Below are positions 25,297-29,710 of a stretch of 29,724 nucleotides of DNA, piece by piece. The notes below the pieces were generated by a model that saw nothing but the letters and a program-made list of their open reading frames with translations, was not told where the DNA came from and ran no database searches. The first letter of the stretch is position 1. Every line of letters begins with the position of its first letter. This stretch comes from Candidatus Auribacterota bacterium. Its GTDB lineage: Bacteria > Auribacterota > UBA6266. The position numbers and the translations under genes were made by a program. The DNA lies in the NCBI GenBank assembly GCA_023136205.1, contig JAGLRQ010000076.1, positions 1-29,724 on the forward strand. The letters are read 5' to 3'.

Positions 25297-25898
25297 ATCC
25301 TTTCTTCTTCGTATTTATTTTTTATCTTCCTAATACGCAGCAAATCCTGAAAAAAAGAACTTCCCACAGGTATAACAAGCCTTCCGCCATCTACAAGCTG
25401 TTCTTTTAAAGGGTCTGGAACAAAAGGTGCTCCTGCTGTCACTATAATCGCGTCAAACGGCGCATGTCCCTTAAATCCCAAAGTTCCATCGCCTTCAACA
25501 ACAGCAACATCCGTAAACCCGGCATTTTCACAATTGCTCCGGGCAATTTCTCTAAGTTCCTTAATCCTCTCAACTGAAAAAACCTTCGCTCCGATAAAAG
25601 ACAGAATAGCCGCCTGGTAGCCGGAGCCGGAACCTATTTCAAGAACTTTATCATTCTTCTTTATTTCAAGAAGCTGTGTCATAAGAGCAACTATGTACGG
25701 CTGAGAAATCGTCTGCCCGTATCCTACCGGAAGAGGTGAATCATTATACGCATATTTTCTACTTTTTTCAGGAATAAAATTTTCTCTAGGAACATTTAAA
25801 AACGCTTCAAGCACTTTTGGAGAATCTATTCCCCTTCTTTTTAGCTGTGTTTCAACCATGTCACGCCTTGACTGCTCAAAATTATTTTCCTTCACCAC
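25245..25898 (-). CDS. pcm: Protein-L-isoaspartate O-methyltransferase
   Basis: MVETQLKRRGI...VLEAFLNVPRENF, GQTISQPYIVALM, VLEIGSGSGYQAA, VTAGAP. GTG start at 25898 or 25895, overlapping the GT2 stop. Confidence 0.9.
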   Translation of the reverse strand: MVKENNFEQSRRDMVETQLKRRGIDSPKVLEAFLNVPRENFIPEKSRKYAYNDSPLPVGYGQTISQPYIVALMTQLLEIKKNDKVLEIGSGSGYQAAILSFIGAKVFSVERIKELREIARSNCENAGFTDVAVVEGDGTLGFKGHAPFDAIIVTAGAPFVPDPLKEQLVDGGRLVIPVGSSFFQDLLRIRKIKNKYEEERICGCMFVPLIGKHGWSN

Positions 25899-26565
25899 GG
25901 CCTCTATCCAGTATCATCAAAAACATAAATTTTATAAACCTTCCCGTATCTCTTAAAGGCCTGATTTTACTCCGTTCTTCACCGTATATCGTTTTTACAG
26001 GAGCATTCACCATCTTATATCCCGCGCGGGCTGCCTTGATAATAAGTTCGGATTCAATTTCAAACCTGCTCATTACACAATTGATGTTTTCGATAACAGA
26101 TTTCTTCACCAATCTAAAGCCGCATTGGCTGTCCTCAAAAATTACTCCTGTAAAACGTCCCAGGAGCCACGACATAAATTTATTGGTCAATTTTCTAATA
26201 AGGGGCATGTTCTCAAGATTATTCATCCTTGACCCAAGAACTATGTCGGCTTTAGTCTGTTCCATTTTAGAAACAAGATTTTCTATATCTCCCGGATCAT
26301 GCTGGCCGTCTCCATCCATAAGAACAACCGCATCAATATCCATCTTTTTTGCACGCGCAAATCCTGTTGAGACAGCATTCCCTTTGCCTTTATTCGTTTC
26401 ATGCCTGATCATCTCCGCACCGGTTTTCCTGACCTCCTCGGCTGTCCTGTCCCCTGAACCATCATCAATAACAAGAACCCTGTCGCAAAACTTCTCTACA
26501 TCAATAATAAGGTTTTTGATATTTTTTTCCTCATTATAAGCCGGAATTATCGCGCAAATCTTCAT
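25882..26565 (-). CDS. Family 2 glycosyltransferase (polyprenyl-phosphate / DPM1-like, soluble)
   Basis: IIPAYNEEKNI, VIDDGSGDRTAE, NKGKGNAV, LMDGDGQHDP (DxD region). 227 aa with no TM segment. Confidence 0.8.
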   Translation of the reverse strand: MKICAIIPAYNEEKNIKNLIIDVEKFCDRVLVIDDGSGDRTAEEVRKTGAEMIRHETNKGKGNAVSTGFARAKKMDIDAVVLMDGDGQHDPGDIENLVSKMEQTKADIVLGSRMNNLENMPLIRKLTNKFMSWLLGRFTGVIFEDSQCGFRLVKKSVIENINCVMSRFEIESELIIKAARAGYKMVNAPVKTIYGEERSKIRPLRDTGRFIKFMFLMILDRGRGEGK

Positions 26566-26576
26566 TTTGTCCGCTC

Positions 26577-27455
26577 TCAGGTACCGAGTTCAGGCCAGAG
26601 GGGATAAAACACAAACCACTGGTCAGGATACTTCAATATCTGCTCCTGCATCTTATTTATAATCTTTTCCCATAGCTCATCTTTCGTTACACCCTTTCCC
26701 GTAATTATAGGGCCGTCAAAATTAAACCGGTACTTGCCGCCGCTTTCCCGGACAAAAAAACCAAAGGTTATATCGGCACCGGTCCTTACAGCCATATCAA
26801 CAGGGCCTCTGGGAAGAATACATTTCCTGCCAAAAAAGACCCTTTCCACACCGTTAGAAGTGGTATCCCTGTCTGCCAGCAAAGCTACAAATTCATTCTT
26901 CTTCAAAGCTTCATAACACCTCCTGACGCTGTACCCCACGGAAATCACTTTAATACCCTGTTTTAACCGTTTCTCTACAAACATACTGTTCACTTTTTCA
27001 TTGGTATGAGGAAGGACAACAACATTTATGGGATACCCCAGGAGCGCAAGGACAATCCCCCCGAGTTCCCAATTGCCAAGGTGGGCTGAGATAATAACAC
27101 TCCCTCTCTTGTGACTTAGCGCTTCATCAATGCTTTCAATTTTCTCCAAAGTTACATTGTCCTTTAAAAAATCTTTATTAAGTTTACCCGCGGCAAAAAA
27201 ATCCACAAGATACTTTCCAAAATTCACAAACGTCCCGCGGGCAATTGCTTTTATCTCTTTTTTCACACAAGCCTGCCTGGGATCCTTTCCCTGATACTCC
27301 ATCATTACAGAAATATTTAAAATGACACCTTTTCTGGTGCTAAAATTAAACACAAAATTCAAATAAGAGATAAACCATGCAATGGCATAGCTCACTTTCT
27401 TCGGCAGGCGAAACGCGAGAAAATGCAATAACGAAAAATAAAATATCTTTATCAT
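26577..27455 (-). CDS. LpxL/HtrB/PatA-family lysophospholipid-type acyltransferase
   Basis: N-terminal membrane anchor. SAHLGNWE (the HxxxxE/D catalytic motif of the lauroyl/myristoyl acyltransferase family) and LLADRD. It overlaps the upstream stop by 4 nt (ATGA). Confidence 0.7.
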   Translation of the reverse strand: MIKIFYFSLLHFLAFRLPKKVSYAIAWFISYLNFVFNFSTRKGVILNISVMMEYQGKDPRQACVKKEIKAIARGTFVNFGKYLVDFFAAGKLNKDFLKDNVTLEKIESIDEALSHKRGSVIISAHLGNWELGGIVLALLGYPINVVVLPHTNEKVNSMFVEKRLKQGIKVISVGYSVRRCYEALKKNEFVALLADRDTTSNGVERVFFGRKCILPRGPVDMAVRTGADITFGFFVRESGGKYRFNFDGPIITGKGVTKDELWEKIINKMQEQILKYPDQWFVFYPLWPELGT

Positions 27456-28558
27456 AACTTCTCAACTATTTTCGCGATTTCAAACGCACTCTCAGATTTC
27501 CCGATTTTGAACGCATTTTCAGATATTTTTTTACACTTTGAATCAGATGTAATAAGTTCTTCCGCAAGTTCAGCAGCCTCCTTCGCGTTCGCCGCGAGGA
27601 CAGCAGATTCCCTTGAAGTCAAATACTCGGTATTAGACTTTTCCTGGCCCGGAAGGGGGTCCGTTATAATCATCGGAAGCCCTTTCACCATCGCCTCCGA
27701 AGAAGTAAGTCCGCCCGGTTTAGTAACAAGAACATCCGAAGCATCCATTATCAACCCTATTTCATCAGAATAGCCGATAATCCTGATATTTTCCCTTCCG
27801 CCAAAACTGCGGGTCAGCCCCTCATTAAGTTTTTTGTTGCCGCCGGTTATAACAAGGAGAAAATGTTTGGCCGGTATGTCTATCATATGCTTTATCACGT
27901 CACCAATAGAACCTAACCCATAACTTCCTCCCATTATACTAATCACAGGAAGCTCTACAGGAAGGCCGAGTTTTATTTTTGCCCTTTGCTTATCCATCTT
28001 TATTGAAAAGGATGCATCAACAGGAATACCCGTAACATGTACCTTCTCCGGAGCCACCCCTTCCGCAATCAGGTACGCTTTAGCTTCATTTGTCGGAACA
28101 CAATATATATCAACCCCATCATTCAGCCAGTAGGAATGCATAATATAATCCGTAATTACGGCAACCAGTTTTATCCCGCAGTCTTTTTCTTTTTTAAAAT
28201 GGGAAAAAAGACTGCATGGTATGGCCTGGGTGCATACAACGGTTTCAGGATAAAACTTATCAAGAAGTTTACTGATTTTCGCCATGTTTAGTTTATGGAA
28301 AAAGCTGTAAAGCTTATCCGTCTTTCTCTTGATCTTTTTATTATCATAAAGATAGTGCCAGATATCAGGAGTGCTTCTTATCATGCGCATGTACGTTTTT
28401 AAGGTAACTTTTGACAAAATAGGATTCGTATGATGAAATGGGTTTGCCATTTTTACATTGAAACCAGGATTGGTTTCCTTAATTATTTTTTCCAGAATAG
28501 CAGCAGCCTTATGGTGTCCAGAATTTCTCACGATATAACAAACTAGTATATTTTTCAT
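27452..28558 (-). CDS. MGDG-synthase / UgtP-like (GT28-type) diacylglycerol glycosyltransferase
   Basis: N-terminus MKNILVCYIVRNSGHHKAA is like the MGDG_synth N-domain. The C-terminal GT-B half has VITGGNKKL...VLVTKPGGLTSSEAM..GLPMI...PGQEKSN. The track GTG at 28588 has no RBS. The ATG at 28558 has GAGG 6 nt upstream and is preferred. Confidence 0.65.
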   Translation of the reverse strand: MKNILVCYIVRNSGHHKAAAILEKIIKETNPGFNVKMANPFHHTNPILSKVTLKTYMRMIRSTPDIWHYLYDNKKIKRKTDKLYSFFHKLNMAKISKLLDKFYPETVVCTQAIPCSLFSHFKKEKDCGIKLVAVITDYIMHSYWLNDGVDIYCVPTNEAKAYLIAEGVAPEKVHVTGIPVDASFSIKMDKQRAKIKLGLPVELPVISIMGGSYGLGSIGDVIKHMIDIPAKHFLLVITGGNKKLNEGLTRSFGGRENIRIIGYSDEIGLIMDASDVLVTKPGGLTSSEAMVKGLPMIITDPLPGQEKSNTEYLTSRESAVLAANAKEAAELAEELITSDSKCKKISENAFKIGKSESAFEIAKIVEKL

Positions 28559-28601
28559 TTGCAACCTCAGATCCCGATTAAAACACACCCTGTAATAGGA
28601 T

Positions 28602-28635
28602 AAAAAAAAGAGCCGGTTTATACCAGCCCTTTTTT
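28602..28635 (-). terminator. Rho-independent terminator downstream of the LpxA-like gene
   Basis: Minus-strand RNA reads AAAAAA-GGGCUGG-UAUAAA-CCGGCUC-UUUUUUUU. That is a 7-bp stem (5 Watson-Crick pairs plus 2 G-U), a 6-nt loop and an 8-U tail. It starts 20 nt after the stop at 28655. Confidence 0.6.
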
Positions 28636-28654: not shown

Positions 28655-29422
28655 CTAACAAACTCCTCTTTTGGAATTTTCTATAAAATCAATAAATTCT
28701 TTTGTCTCATTAGAAACAAAACCCAGGGATTTTATTTTTTCCAGAGCGTTATGTTTATTTGCCCCTTTCTTATAATATATTTTATATATTTCTTTCAACT
28801 CTTTTATCGCGTCTTTTGAAAAATTGTTTCTCTTCATCCCTACCGCATTAATCCCGTAAACTTCATTACGCTCTGCCACCATTGAAAAAGGAGAAACGTC
28901 TTTAGTAATACGGCTGTTGCCGCTAATCATTGAACACCGGCCTATCCTGCAAAACTGATGAATTACCACACCACCTGAGATAAACACCTGGTCAAAAACC
29001 CGGACATTGCCGGCAAGGAGCGAAGCATTTGCCATAACAACATTGTCGCCTACAATACAGTCATAAGCAATATGGGAACATGCCATAAGGAAATTATTGC
29101 TGCCGACCTTCGTTATCCCGCCTTCTTTCGCACTGCGATGAATGGTTACCATCTCCCTGACAGTATTCCCACTGCCTATCTTAAATGAAGAAAAAGATAC
29201 GCTGCTAAAGGTTAAATCCTGCGGAACATCTCCTATAACAGCACCGGTATGGATTAGATTATTTTCCCCTATCTCGCCACAGCCCATGATGTGAACATGA
29301 GGATATATCTTCGTACCTCTTCCAATCTCAATTTCTCCTTCAATAATCGCGTAAGCGCCAACTTCCACATTTTCCGCCAGCCTTACATTTCTACCAACAA
29401 TGGCCGTTGAATGTACACTCAT
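28655..29422 (-). CDS. LpxA-family left-handed beta-helix acyltransferase (UDP-GlcNAc O-acyltransferase homologue) with substitutions at catalytic positions
   Basis: Gap-free similarity to E. coli LpxA over the core: KVGSNNFLMACSHIAYDCIVGDNVVMANASLLAGNVRVFDQVFISGGVVIHQFCRIG versus [57 protein letters not shown]. The C-terminal helical domain is present (GMKRNNFSKDAIKELKEIYKIYY). E. coli His125 aligns with Tyr and His144 with Asn, so I give no gene symbol. Confidence 0.8.
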   Translation of the reverse strand: MSVHSTAIVGRNVRLAENVEVGAYAIIEGEIEIGRGTKIYPHVHIMGCGEIGENNLIHTGAVIGDVPQDLTFSSVSFSSFKIGSGNTVREMVTIHRSAKEGGITKVGSNNFLMACSHIAYDCIVGDNVVMANASLLAGNVRVFDQVFISGGVVIHQFCRIGRCSMISGNSRITKDVSPFSMVAERNEVYGINAVGMKRNNFSKDAIKELKEIYKIYYKKGANKHNALEKIKSLGFVSNETKEFIDFIENSKRGVC

Positions 29423-29425
29423 TCT

Positions 29426-29710
29426 CTAATACTCATTCTCCACGTTTTCTTCATTGGAAAGCTCAAATTCATCGTGAGTATCGTCTATTAACGCAATAAC
29501 CTCACCAACCTCAACATCATCGTCTTCCTTGAAATTTAACTGGGTGACTATTCCTGATTCAGGAGCAGGAATATTAAATGTCGCTTTATCTGTTGCAACC
29601 TCCACCAGGTCAGCATTTTTTTCAACCTGATCACCCTCTTCATAATGCCAGAAAGAAACTTTCGCTTTTTCTACACCATCTCCGAGTTCCGGAATAACCA
29701 CTTCAACCAT
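29426..29710 (-). CDS. Stand-alone lipoyl/biotinyl-attachment domain protein with an acidic C-terminal tail
   Basis: VVIPELGDGVEKAKVSFWHYEEGDQVEKNADLVEVATDKATFNIPAPESGIVTQL...VGEVIALI matches the E2/GcvH-type lipoyl domain, with the modifiable Lys in TDKA. The tail is DDTHDEFELSNEENVENEY. GGAGG RBS at 29720-29724. The stop lies 3 nt before the LpxA-like start. Confidence 0.7.
   Translation of the reverse strand: MVEVVIPELGDGVEKAKVSFWHYEEGDQVEKNADLVEVATDKATFNIPAPESGIVTQLNFKEDDDVEVGEVIALIDDTHDEFELSNEENVENEY

What the first reader, a model, noticed from the sequence alone, without database searches (positions are those of the whole stretch)
28655..29422. LpxA homologue with the catalytic His replaced by Tyr (and His144 by Asn)
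Seen in the sequence:
- The core aligns without gaps to E. coli LpxA as I recall it: KVGS-NN-LM...HIA-DC-VG...AN...LAG-V-V-D...GG...HQFC-IG.
- In E. coli the segment is A-H122-I-A-H125-D-C. Here it reads S-H-I-A-Y-D-C, with codons CAT ATT GCT TAT GAC TGT on the minus strand around 29065-29085.
- LAG-H144-V reads LAG-N-V.
- The residue after QDL (K76 in E. coli) is Thr.

Established knowledge: His125 is the general base of E. coli LpxA and is conserved in characterised orthologues. H144 and K76 contribute to UDP-GlcNAc binding.

Inference: this protein may be an inactive or regulatory paralogue, an acyltransferase using a different acceptor or mechanism, or a recent TAT/CAT polymorphism or sequencing error.

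The context is also atypical for lpxA. There is no fabZ, lpxD or lpxB beside it. An orphan lipoyl-domain gene sits 3 nt upstream and a terminator lies immediately downstream.
Basis: partly seen in the sequence, partly recalled or inferred. Interest (0 to 1): 0.6.

Follow-up and report, generated by a model that had tools for sequence, protein, structure and literature searches.

The report
LpxA paralogue lacking its catalytic histidine
This uncultured PVC-group bacterium has a normal lipid A starter enzyme (LpxA) elsewhere in its genome. The gene in this window is a second, divergent copy in which the "absolutely conserved" catalytic histidine is a tyrosine; the change is real and the gene is still kept by selection, so this is a modest curiosity, not a new system.

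Summary
ORF 28655-29422(-) is a full-length LpxA homologue above NCBIfam cut-offs. Against E. coli LpxA, Y120 = H125, N139 = H144 and T71 = K76.

- **Not an error.** Every member of the 90 % cluster that covers these positions, from several independent assemblies, carries Tyr and Asn. This includes a variant 18 amino acids away.
- **A second copy.** The genome also has a canonical lpxA (K76/H125/H144) inside bamA-skp-lpxC/fabZ-lpxA-lpxI-gfo-lpxB-msbA on another contig.
- **Its clade.** The window's gene belongs to a widespread Leptospira-like clade of LpxA with a Pro-Gln-Asp (PQD) motif. K76 and H144 are variable throughout that clade, so those two points are not unusual.
- **How rare the Tyr is.** Of the 121 sequences compared (the query and its 120 nearest homologues), 118 have His. 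Across 79 genomes of the phylum, 94 sites match the His pattern and 2 match the Tyr pattern.
- **Two origins.** Tyr arose twice within one family, and the same-genus species still has His.
- **Still selected.** Within the Tyr clade dN/dS is about 0.07-0.22.

My best guess, not a demonstration, is an accessory LpxA isoform with weak or base-independent acyl transfer, perhaps onto an amine acceptor. A non-catalytic paralogue is nearly as likely. The scan has not noted this before on other DNA.

The parts
28655..29422 (-). lpxA2: second, PQD-type LpxA homologue, 255 aa, left-handed beta-helix (LbH) plus C-terminal helical domain
29063..29065 (-). TAT codon, Tyr120, at the position of the general-base His125 of E. 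coli LpxA (His120 of Leptospira LpxA)
   Evidence: CAC in the same-genus orthologue.
29006..29008 (-). AAT codon, Asn139, at the position of E. coli His144. This position is variable in the clade.
29210..29212 (-). ACC codon, Thr71, at the position of E. coli Lys76. This position is variable in the clade.
29069..29071 (-). ATT codon, Ile118. Both Tyr lineages have Ile here; all His-bearing family members have Val.
28604..28635 (-). Intrinsic-terminator-like hairpin (A-tract, 14-bp stem, U-tract) after the lpxA2 stop
   Evidence: dG -21.7 kcal/mol, z -4.65. Not found by the consensus scan.
29426..29710 (-). Free-standing lipoyl-domain protein, 94 aa, 3 nt upstream. In relatives it is the last gene of lpdA-lipB-lipA-lipoyl.
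25882..28558 (-). Neighbouring GT28 (MGDG-synthase-like), LpxL-type acyltransferase and GT2 cassette, after the terminator. Syntenic with lpxA2 only inside this family; listed as context, not shown to be a partner.

Best explanation
The gene is an accessory second LpxA ('LpxA2') of the Leptospira-like PQD-type clade, in an Auribacterota-type bacterium. Essential LpxA activity is supplied by a canonical lpxA in the standard lipid A cluster. In this species-level lineage the general-base His was replaced by Tyr through a single CAT-to-TAT transition, together with H139N. The same replacement occurred independently in one species of the sister genus. The protein is still kept by purifying selection and retains the other acyl-ACP and UDP-sugar contact residues. 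I therefore take it to still bind its substrates. My inference is that it works as a slow or base-independent acyltransferase. This is chemically most plausible if the acceptor nucleophile is an amine, as with UDP-GlcNAc3N, the substrate of Leptospira LpxA. It would then add a minor or conditional acyl variant to lipid A. Shown: paralogy, the reality of the Tyr, its two origins, and selection. Inferred: residual activity, the acceptor, and the role.
For: Family membership and residue mapping. Canonical copy and a full Raetz cluster in the same genome. Tyr and Asn in all seven cluster members that cover the sites, with the 99 %-identical protein in four assemblies. Tree: the canonical clade (98*) excludes the family's LpxA2 clade (100*), which lies with Leptospira LpxA and other PQD types. 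The best solved relative is Leptospira LpxA 3hsq. That enzyme uses the 3-amino sugar (review PMC4624066). The PQD type is a working LpxA: it is the only LpxA found in families f9, f15 and f17, and in f11 it overlaps lpxK and is followed by an lpxL-type gene. Two origins: Tyr is in G000 and G002, while His is in G001 and G003-5. Flanking synonymous codons differ (ATT GCT TAT against ATC GCG TAT), and there is no tract of raised identity. Selection within the Tyr clade: 3 non-synonymous against 11 synonymous codons (w 0.07), and 18 against 20 (w 0.22), both P of about 1e-4 or lower against neutrality. Q68, D69, H117, D121, G138, H155, Q156, G168, N192 and R198 are retained. A UDP-GlcNAc 3-dehydrogenase-like gene sits in the lipid A cluster. 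From my own knowledge: LbH N-acetyltransferases such as QdtC and WlbB work on amino sugars without an enzymatic base. Two lpxA genes have been proposed to serve a hybrid GlcN3N-GlcN backbone in Capnocytophaga (PMC3342949).
Against: His125 is described as absolutely conserved and as the general base (PMC6408518). From memory, the E. coli H125A mutant is inactive. All other PQD-type homologues, including Leptospira LpxA, keep the His (118 of 121; 94 pattern matches against 2). The clade's chemistry therefore normally needs it. With T71 and N139 there is little positive charge nearby to lower a Tyr pKa. Nothing identifies the acceptor. The PQD motif is not diagnostic, because H. pylori LpxA has PQDLK. 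The 3-dehydrogenase-like gene is in 40 of 41 genomes whatever LpxA types they carry. dN/dS in this genus (0.2-0.27) is higher than for the canonical copy (0.095). Each Tyr lineage also changed a second active-site residue: H139N here and D69E in G002.
Confidence: 0.4

Rival explanations
1. Pseudoenzyme. LpxA2-Tyr is catalytically dead. It is kept for a non-catalytic role that uses its intact fold and binding sites, for example sensing or buffering R-3-hydroxyacyl-ACP or UDP-GlcNAc, or binding another lipid A enzyme. In this family that role makes the His dispensable.
For: The catalytic His is essential in characterised LpxA. It was lost twice within a family of six species but in none of the other homologues examined. 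Second active-site changes occurred in both Tyr lineages. Purifying selection continues. A canonical copy covers catalysis.
Against: Four of six species keep the His, with the same synteny and, within this genus, the same dN/dS. No partner is conserved: the neighbours are lipoate genes and a cassette linked only within the family. No family-wide remodelling of binding residues is seen. No non-catalytic LpxA is known to me.
Confidence: 0.3
2. A redundant copy on its way out. The H-to-Y change is a recent loss-of-function hit in a dispensable paralogue, and decay has not yet caught up.
For: A canonical copy is present. dN/dS against the sister species is raised (0.27 against 0.095 for LpxA1). 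The catalytic position varies among close relatives.
Against: The ORF is intact in every assembly. Tyr has persisted through a divergence of 18 amino acids and dS about 0.14, with w 0.22, well below 1 (P 1.3e-4). The gene is retained in all six genomes of the family.
Confidence: 0.13
3. The protein has been recruited to another pathway suggested by its neighbours: acylation linked to the lipoyl carrier, or to the GT28-acyltransferase-GT2 glycolipid cassette.
For: There is a 3-nt gap to the lipoyl gene. The order lipB-lipA-lipoyl-lpxA2-GT28-LPLAT-GT2 is conserved in all six family genomes.
Against: Outside the family the GT28 gene lies on other contigs or 25 kb away from the PQD-type lpxA. It also occurs in families with only a canonical lpxA. 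A terminator separates lpxA2 from the cassette. In the sister genus the lipoyl gene is 60-65 nt away. UDP-binding residues N192 and R198 are kept. Elsewhere in the phylum the clade sits with lpxK and lpxL.
Confidence: 0.1
4. Sequencing or assembly artefact at the TAT codon.
For: It is a single-base difference from CAT. Reads could not be inspected.
Against: The same TAT and AAT codons occur in contigs from four other assemblies and in a diverged variant.
Confidence: 0.02

Closest known systems
Leptospira interrogans LpxA (PDB 3HSQ, 3I3A, 3I3X), UDP-GlcNAc3N-selective N-acyltransferase
   Same: Best solved relative (E 8.7e-59). It aligns residue for residue over positions 1-183. It shares P67-Q68-D69-L70 with no Lys at the K76 position, a basic residue at the K171 'ruler' position (R171 here), and Val at the E200 position. 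Both lie outside the canonical clade in the tree.
   Different: Leptospira has His120 and His139; here these are Tyr120 and Asn139. Leptospira LpxA is, as far as I recall, that organism's only LpxA, whereas this is a second copy. The link in the tree is weak (support 85, long branch).
E. coli LpxA (PDB 1LXA and others; EC 2.3.1.129)
   Same: Same fold and length and same family HMM. H122, H160, Q161, G143, G173, N198 and R204 equivalents are kept.
   Different: H125 is Tyr, H144 is Asn, K76 is Thr, E200 is Val and R205 is Asn. The gene is not in the lpxD-fabZ-lpxA-lpxB cluster. The genome has a separate orthologue of that kind.
lpxA / lpxA' pair of Capnocytophaga canimorsus (PMC3342949)
   Same: Two lpxA genes in one genome, proposed there to serve a hybrid GlcN3N-GlcN lipid A backbone with different 3 and 3' acyl chains.
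   Different: In Capnocytophaga both genes lie in one operon with lpxC and lpxD. No loss of the catalytic His is reported in the passages I read. I did not compare the sequences.
LbH sugar N-acetyltransferases without a catalytic base (QdtC, WlbB, AntD class; from my own knowledge, not tested here)
   Same: Left-handed beta-helix acyltransferases that acylate a sugar amine with no His general base. They show that the fold can catalyse N-acylation without one.
   Different: These are acetyl-CoA-dependent enzymes of a different subfamily. The resemblance concerns a possible mechanism only, not membership.

Membership tests
LpxA (acyl-ACP--UDP-GlcNAc O-acyltransferase, TIGR01852 / NF003657) | Full-length match to the family HMM above the curated cut-off | tested here: met
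   284 bits against cut-offs of 231 and 226, model positions 1-254
LpxA (acyl-ACP--UDP-GlcNAc O-acyltransferase, TIGR01852 / NF003657) | Hexapeptide LbH domain followed by the LpxA-specific C-terminal helical domain | tested here: met
   PF00132 plus PF13720 (residues 175-255, model 1-82 of 82). End-to-end alignment to 17 solved LpxA chains.
LpxA (acyl-ACP--UDP-GlcNAc O-acyltransferase, TIGR01852 / NF003657) | General-base histidine (E. coli H125) | tested here: not met
   Tyr120. I therefore file it as a homologue or paralogue of LpxA, not as a demonstrated EC 2.3.1.129 enzyme.
LpxA (acyl-ACP--UDP-GlcNAc O-acyltransferase, TIGR01852 / NF003657) | Other substrate-contact residues (Q73, D74, H122, G143, H160, Q161, G173, N198, R204; also K76, H144) | tested here: inconclusive
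   The first nine are kept. K76 and H144 are replaced, but these two vary across the whole PQD-type clade.
LpxA (acyl-ACP--UDP-GlcNAc O-acyltransferase, TIGR01852 / NF003657) | Location in a lipid A gene cluster | tested here: not met
   The gene lies after lipB-lipA-lipoyl. The canonical copy is in the cluster. Clade members in family f11 lie between lpxK and lpxL.
LpxA (acyl-ACP--UDP-GlcNAc O-acyltransferase, TIGR01852 / NF003657) | Acyl transfer from R-3-hydroxyacyl-ACP to the 3 position of a UDP-sugar | not testable with these tools
   Needs an enzyme assay
UDP-GlcNAc3N-selective LpxA (Leptospira type) | Sequence signature that predicts amine selectivity | tested here: inconclusive
   The gene shares PQD and lacks K76, like 3hsq. 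However, H. pylori LpxA, from an organism whose lipid A has a GlcN backbone as far as I know, also has PQD, with K76. No reliable signature is available. The structural paper was not held.
UDP-GlcNAc3N-selective LpxA (Leptospira type) | Genome makes UDP-GlcNAc3N (GnnA dehydrogenase plus GnnB transaminase) | tested here: inconclusive
   A Gfo/Idh/MocA gene between lpxI and lpxB best matches UDP-GlcNAc 3-dehydrogenase (269 bits, below the cut-off of 450). Six DegT-type aminotransferases are present. The dehydrogenase-like gene is in 40 of 41 genomes regardless of LpxA type.

The most novel reading that the evidence does not exclude
A natural LpxA that catalyses acyl transfer with Tyr in place of the 'absolutely conserved' general-base His. 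It would use a Tyr-assisted or base-independent route, selected twice independently. That would show the His is not obligatory for the family's chemistry and would point to an amine-acylating sub-class.
Probability: 0.3. Interest if true: 0.55.

Novelty: new variant of a known kind. Interest (0 to 1): 0.38.

Why it matters
LpxA is an antibiotic target, and its His125 is treated as invariant. A His-to-Tyr variant fixed in its lineage, under selection and arising twice, is a ready-made natural experiment. It can show whether the base is dispensable for some acceptors, or whether LpxA can turn into a pseudoenzyme. The work also shows that many genomes of this uncultured PVC phylum carry two LpxA types, and that losses of K76 and H144 are normal in the second type. 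This should temper annotation-based inferences. The canonical enzyme is present, so nothing about the organism's ability to make lipopolysaccharide (LPS) is in question. The finding is of specialist interest.

Tried and rejected
1. **PQD motif as a marker of UDP-GlcNAc3N selectivity.** Rejected, because H. pylori LpxA 1j2z reads GTQPQDLKYKG.
2. **Dehydrogenase-like gene against LpxA type.** I looked for a correlation between the GnnA-like dehydrogenase and the presence of the second LpxA. There is none: it is in 40 of 41 genomes.
3. **GT28-acyltransferase-GT2 cassette as a conserved partner.** The link holds only within the family.
4. **Recombination as the source of the shared SHIAYDC.** I tested transfer between the two Tyr lineages. 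Flanking synonymous codons differ and there is no identity peak.
5. **Family-wide active-site remodelling.** This could explain a dispensable His. Only A13V, V31I, T49G, T98A/S, L196M and G200N/S are family-specific, and none is a known contact residue.
6. **Hydrocarbon-ruler difference between the two copies.** Both have Gly at the E. coli G173 position and a basic residue at the Leptospira K171 position, so this does not discriminate.
8. **Primary structural papers.** Robins 2009 and Williams 2007 were not held, and a first literature search found nothing.
9. **Consensus terminator scan.** It missed the hairpin, which folding confirmed.
10. **Structure prediction.** Not run. Homology to solved LpxA is already end-to-end, and I did not expect model coordinates to be available for measurement.

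Full report
**What is there**

The minus-strand ORF 28655-29422 encodes a 255-aa protein. It matches both NCBIfam LpxA equivalogs over their full length: TIGR01852 at 284 bits (cut-off 231) and NF003657 at 284 bits (cut-off 226). It also has the Pfam hexapeptide repeats and the LpxA-specific C-terminal domain PF13720. It aligns end to end with 17 solved LpxA chains. The best is Leptospira interrogans LpxA 3hsq (E 8.7e-59), followed by Acinetobacter and E. coli 1lxa (E 2.8e-53).

In the E. coli alignment the stretch from query 105 to 183 has no gaps. The residue mapping is:

| Query residue | Codon and coordinates | E. coli residue |
|---|---|---|
| Y120 | TAT, 29065-29063 | H125 |
| N139 | AAT, 29008-29006 | H144 |
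| T71 | ACC, 29212-29210 | K76 |

H117, H155, Q156, G138, G168, N192 and R198 keep the E. coli residues H122, H160, Q161, G143, G173, N198 and R204.
- The gap to the upstream lipoyl-domain gene is 3 nt.
- A strong hairpin with a U-tract follows the stop (28604-28635; dG -21.7 kcal/mol, z -4.65).
- No fabZ, lpxD or lpxB lies in the window.

**The Tyr is real**

A protein 99 % identical (three differences) carries the same SHIAYDC and LAGNV. It is encoded on contigs from four independent assemblies: ENA ERZ23498458, Logan SRR32546281 and SRR13892602, and GCA_023144245.1. The 90 % cluster has eight members. All seven that cover the sites have Tyr and Asn. One of them differs from the window's protein at 18 positions and comes from a further assembly, ERZ25746724. 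The codons are TAT and AAT in every copy whose DNA I read.

**It is a second copy**

The window's genome is a 1.76-Mb, 93 %-complete MAG. NCBI names a family member 'Candidatus Aureabacteria', now Auribacterota, in the PVC group. The genome has two LpxA matches above cut-off. The other copy, on contig C145, scores 311 bits. It reads NQDLKYKG ... AHVGHNS ... IAGHV, so K76, H125 and H144 are all present. It lies in the cluster bamA-skp-lpxC/fabZ (fused)-lpxA-lpxI-Gfo/Idh/MocA-lpxB-msbA. An lpxD-like gene is on C111. The canonical lipid A (Raetz) pathway therefore does not depend on the window's gene.

**What kind of copy**

All five other genomes of the family have both genes. A maximum-likelihood tree of 72 LpxA sequences gives a supported canonical clade (98*). 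It contains E. coli, Acinetobacter and one copy from most families of the phylum. The window's gene and its six nearest relatives form their own clade (100*) outside it. They sit with the second copies of other families and with Leptospira LpxA.

Members outside the canonical clade share Pro before the Gln-Asp of the QDL motif ('PQD type'). All 120 best database homologues have this feature. They come from Desulfobacterota, Verrucomicrobiota, Binatia, Acidobacteriota, Leptospiraceae and others.

- The H144 position is H 62, Y 53, R 3, N 2, K 1.
- The K76 position is A 56, S 20, K 17, T 11 and others.

The PQD type is a working LpxA:
- It is the only LpxA found in families f9, f15 and f17.
- In family f11 it overlaps lpxK by 4 nt and is followed by a CPBP-family protein and an lpxL-type acyltransferase.

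**How unusual the Tyr is**

The catalytic position is His in 118 of the 121 sequences. The three exceptions are the query, its 99 % twin and P0004. P0004 is the orthologue in genome G002 of the sister genus.

A codon pattern that spans H117 to Q156 was run over all 79 genomes held for the phylum. It matched 94 sites with His at the catalytic codon and 2 with Tyr (G000 and G002). The reversed control pattern gave no hits. A review-level statement in print calls H125 'absolutely conserved' and the general base (PMC6408518).

**Two origins**

In the family tree, which agrees with the genus assignments, the branching is (G001,(G000, twin)) and (G002,(G003,(G004,G005))). G001 has CAC, and G003-G005 have CAT or CAC. 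With His in every outgroup, two His-to-Tyr transitions are the most parsimonious history.

The local codons differ at synonymous sites: CAT ATT GCT TAT in G000 against CAT ATC GCG TAT in G002. G002's flanks look like those of its own genus, and there is no window of raised nucleotide identity. Recombination is therefore not the source.

In both Tyr lineages the interior residue two positions upstream is Ile, while all His-bearing family members have Val. Each Tyr lineage also changed another active-site position:
- H139N here.
- D69E in G002, where Asp is present in 117 of 121 homologues.

The Val/Ile coincidence may be chance.

**Selection**

| Comparison | Non-synonymous / synonymous codons | dN/dS |
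|---|---|---|
| Tyr clade: window vs 99 % twin | 3 / 11 | 0.07 |
| Tyr clade: window vs diverged variant | 18 / 20 | 0.22 |
| Window LpxA2 vs His-bearing G001 orthologue | 31 / 25 | 0.27 |
| Canonical LpxA, same genome pair | 11 / 30 | 0.095 |
| LpxA2 between two close species of the sister genus (G004 vs G005) | not counted | 0.09 |

- Both Tyr-clade values lie far below neutrality (binomial P 2.6e-5 and 1.3e-4).
- The flanking genes give dN/dS 0.08-0.34 in the window-G001 pair; the three genes of the adjacent GT28 cassette give 0.14-0.19.
- The protein is therefore under real, if somewhat relaxed, constraint after the substitution. It is not a decaying pseudogene.
- No family-specific remodelling of known contact residues was found.

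**Context**

Relatives with longer contigs show that the upstream genes are lpdA, lipB, lipA and the 94-aa lipoyl carrier. The lipoyl gene therefore belongs with the lipoate genes.

The order lipB-lipA-lipoyl-lpxA2 | terminator | GT28-LpxL-like-GT2-pcm is kept in all six family genomes. Outside the family, the GT28 gene lies on other contigs or 25 kb away from the PQD-type lpxA. It also occurs in families that have only a canonical lpxA. I therefore do not treat the cassette or the lipoyl protein as a functional partner.

**What it most likely does**

Shown here:
- It is a second LpxA of a clade that can act as the sole LpxA.
- It has lost the general base.
- It is still selected.
- Its other contact residues are intact.

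The rest is inferred. Tyr with no nearby Lys or His is a poor general base for activating a hydroxyl. The most coherent way for the protein to stay an enzyme is to acylate an amine, which needs positioning more than deprotonation. Several observations are compatible with that:
- The nearest characterised relative, Leptospira LpxA, uses UDP-GlcNAc3N (PMC4624066).
- A Gfo/Idh/MocA gene in the lipid A cluster best matches UDP-GlcNAc 3-dehydrogenase (269 bits, below cut-off).
- From my own knowledge, other LbH N-acyltransferases work without a base.
- Two lpxA genes have been linked to a hybrid GlcN3N-GlcN backbone in Capnocytophaga (PMC3342949).

Three observations count against it:
- Every other member of the clade, Leptospira included, keeps the His.
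- The PQD motif is not diagnostic, because H. pylori LpxA has PQDLK.
- The dehydrogenase-like gene is present in 40 of 41 genomes whatever their LpxA types.

My estimates are:

| Explanation | Probability |
|---|---|
| Weak or base-independent acyltransferase | about 0.4 |
| Conserved non-catalytic paralogue | about 0.3 |
| Early loss of a redundant copy | about 0.13 |
| Recruitment to a neighbour-encoded pathway | about 0.1 |
| Artefact | about 0.02 |

**Comparison with what is known, and verdict**

By descent this is an LpxA. Because the defining catalytic His was tested and is not met, I do not file it as a demonstrated UDP-GlcNAc O-acyltransferase. It is a new variant of a known kind: a paralogue, fixed in its lineage and arising twice, with Tyr at the general-base position. 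It is of specialist interest and easy to test at the bench. It does not change the picture of LPS synthesis in this organism.

Noticed in passing
G000 contig C145 (locus L076 1331-10748): The canonical lipid A locus is bamA-skp-lpxC/fabZ fusion (438 aa, NF009667 546 bits)-lpxA-lpxI-Gfo/Idh/MocA-lpxB-msbA, followed by an unassigned 228-aa protein. The Gfo/Idh/MocA protein best matches archaeal UDP-GlcNAc 3-dehydrogenase (269 bits, below cut-off). An orthologue (46-95 % identity) is present in 40 of 41 genomes of the phylum sample, often next to lpxA. This hints at GlcN3N-type lipid A across the phylum.
   Followed up: partly
L057 (G017) and L056 (G033), second LpxA copies of family f13; also L066 and L067: Other active-site deviations occur in LpxA copies of this phylum. 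The f13 second copies read VRQFC, with Arg at the E. coli H160 position. The f13 canonical copies read LAGDV, and the f6 and f16 canonical copies read LAGCV, with Asp or Cys at the H144 position.
   Followed up: no
L023 353-3758 (G039) and L019 (G023), family f11: The order is lpxK, then PQD-type lpxA (4-nt overlap), then a CPBP/Rce1-like membrane protease, then an lpxL-type acyltransferase. A CAAX-protease-family gene embedded in a lipid A late-step cluster is unexplained.
   Followed up: partly
window 29426-29710, and L037 10630-13811, L040 7930-9704: The 94-aa lipoyl carrier is nearly invariant between the two species of the genus (1 difference in 94). It follows lpdA-lipB-lipA (in the sister genus argS-lipB-lipA, without lpdA). 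It matches the free-standing carrier family noted earlier by the scan.
   Followed up: partly
window 28558-28588: The GT28 (MGDG-synthase-like) gene probably starts at the ATG at 28558 (368 aa, as called in four other assemblies). The GTG at 28588 listed by the ORF finder is less likely. This leaves a 96-nt intergenic region holding the terminator.
   Followed up: partly
G014:C1:609470-610390: The UDP-GlcNAc 3-dehydrogenase-like gene of this relative has one in-frame TGA. It could be a pseudogene, a sequencing error or recoding. I did not look further.
   Followed up: no
window 29069-29071 and G002:C6 (L039): Val118 to Ile accompanies His120 to Tyr in both independent Tyr lineages. This may be a compensating core change or a coincidence.
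   Followed up: partly
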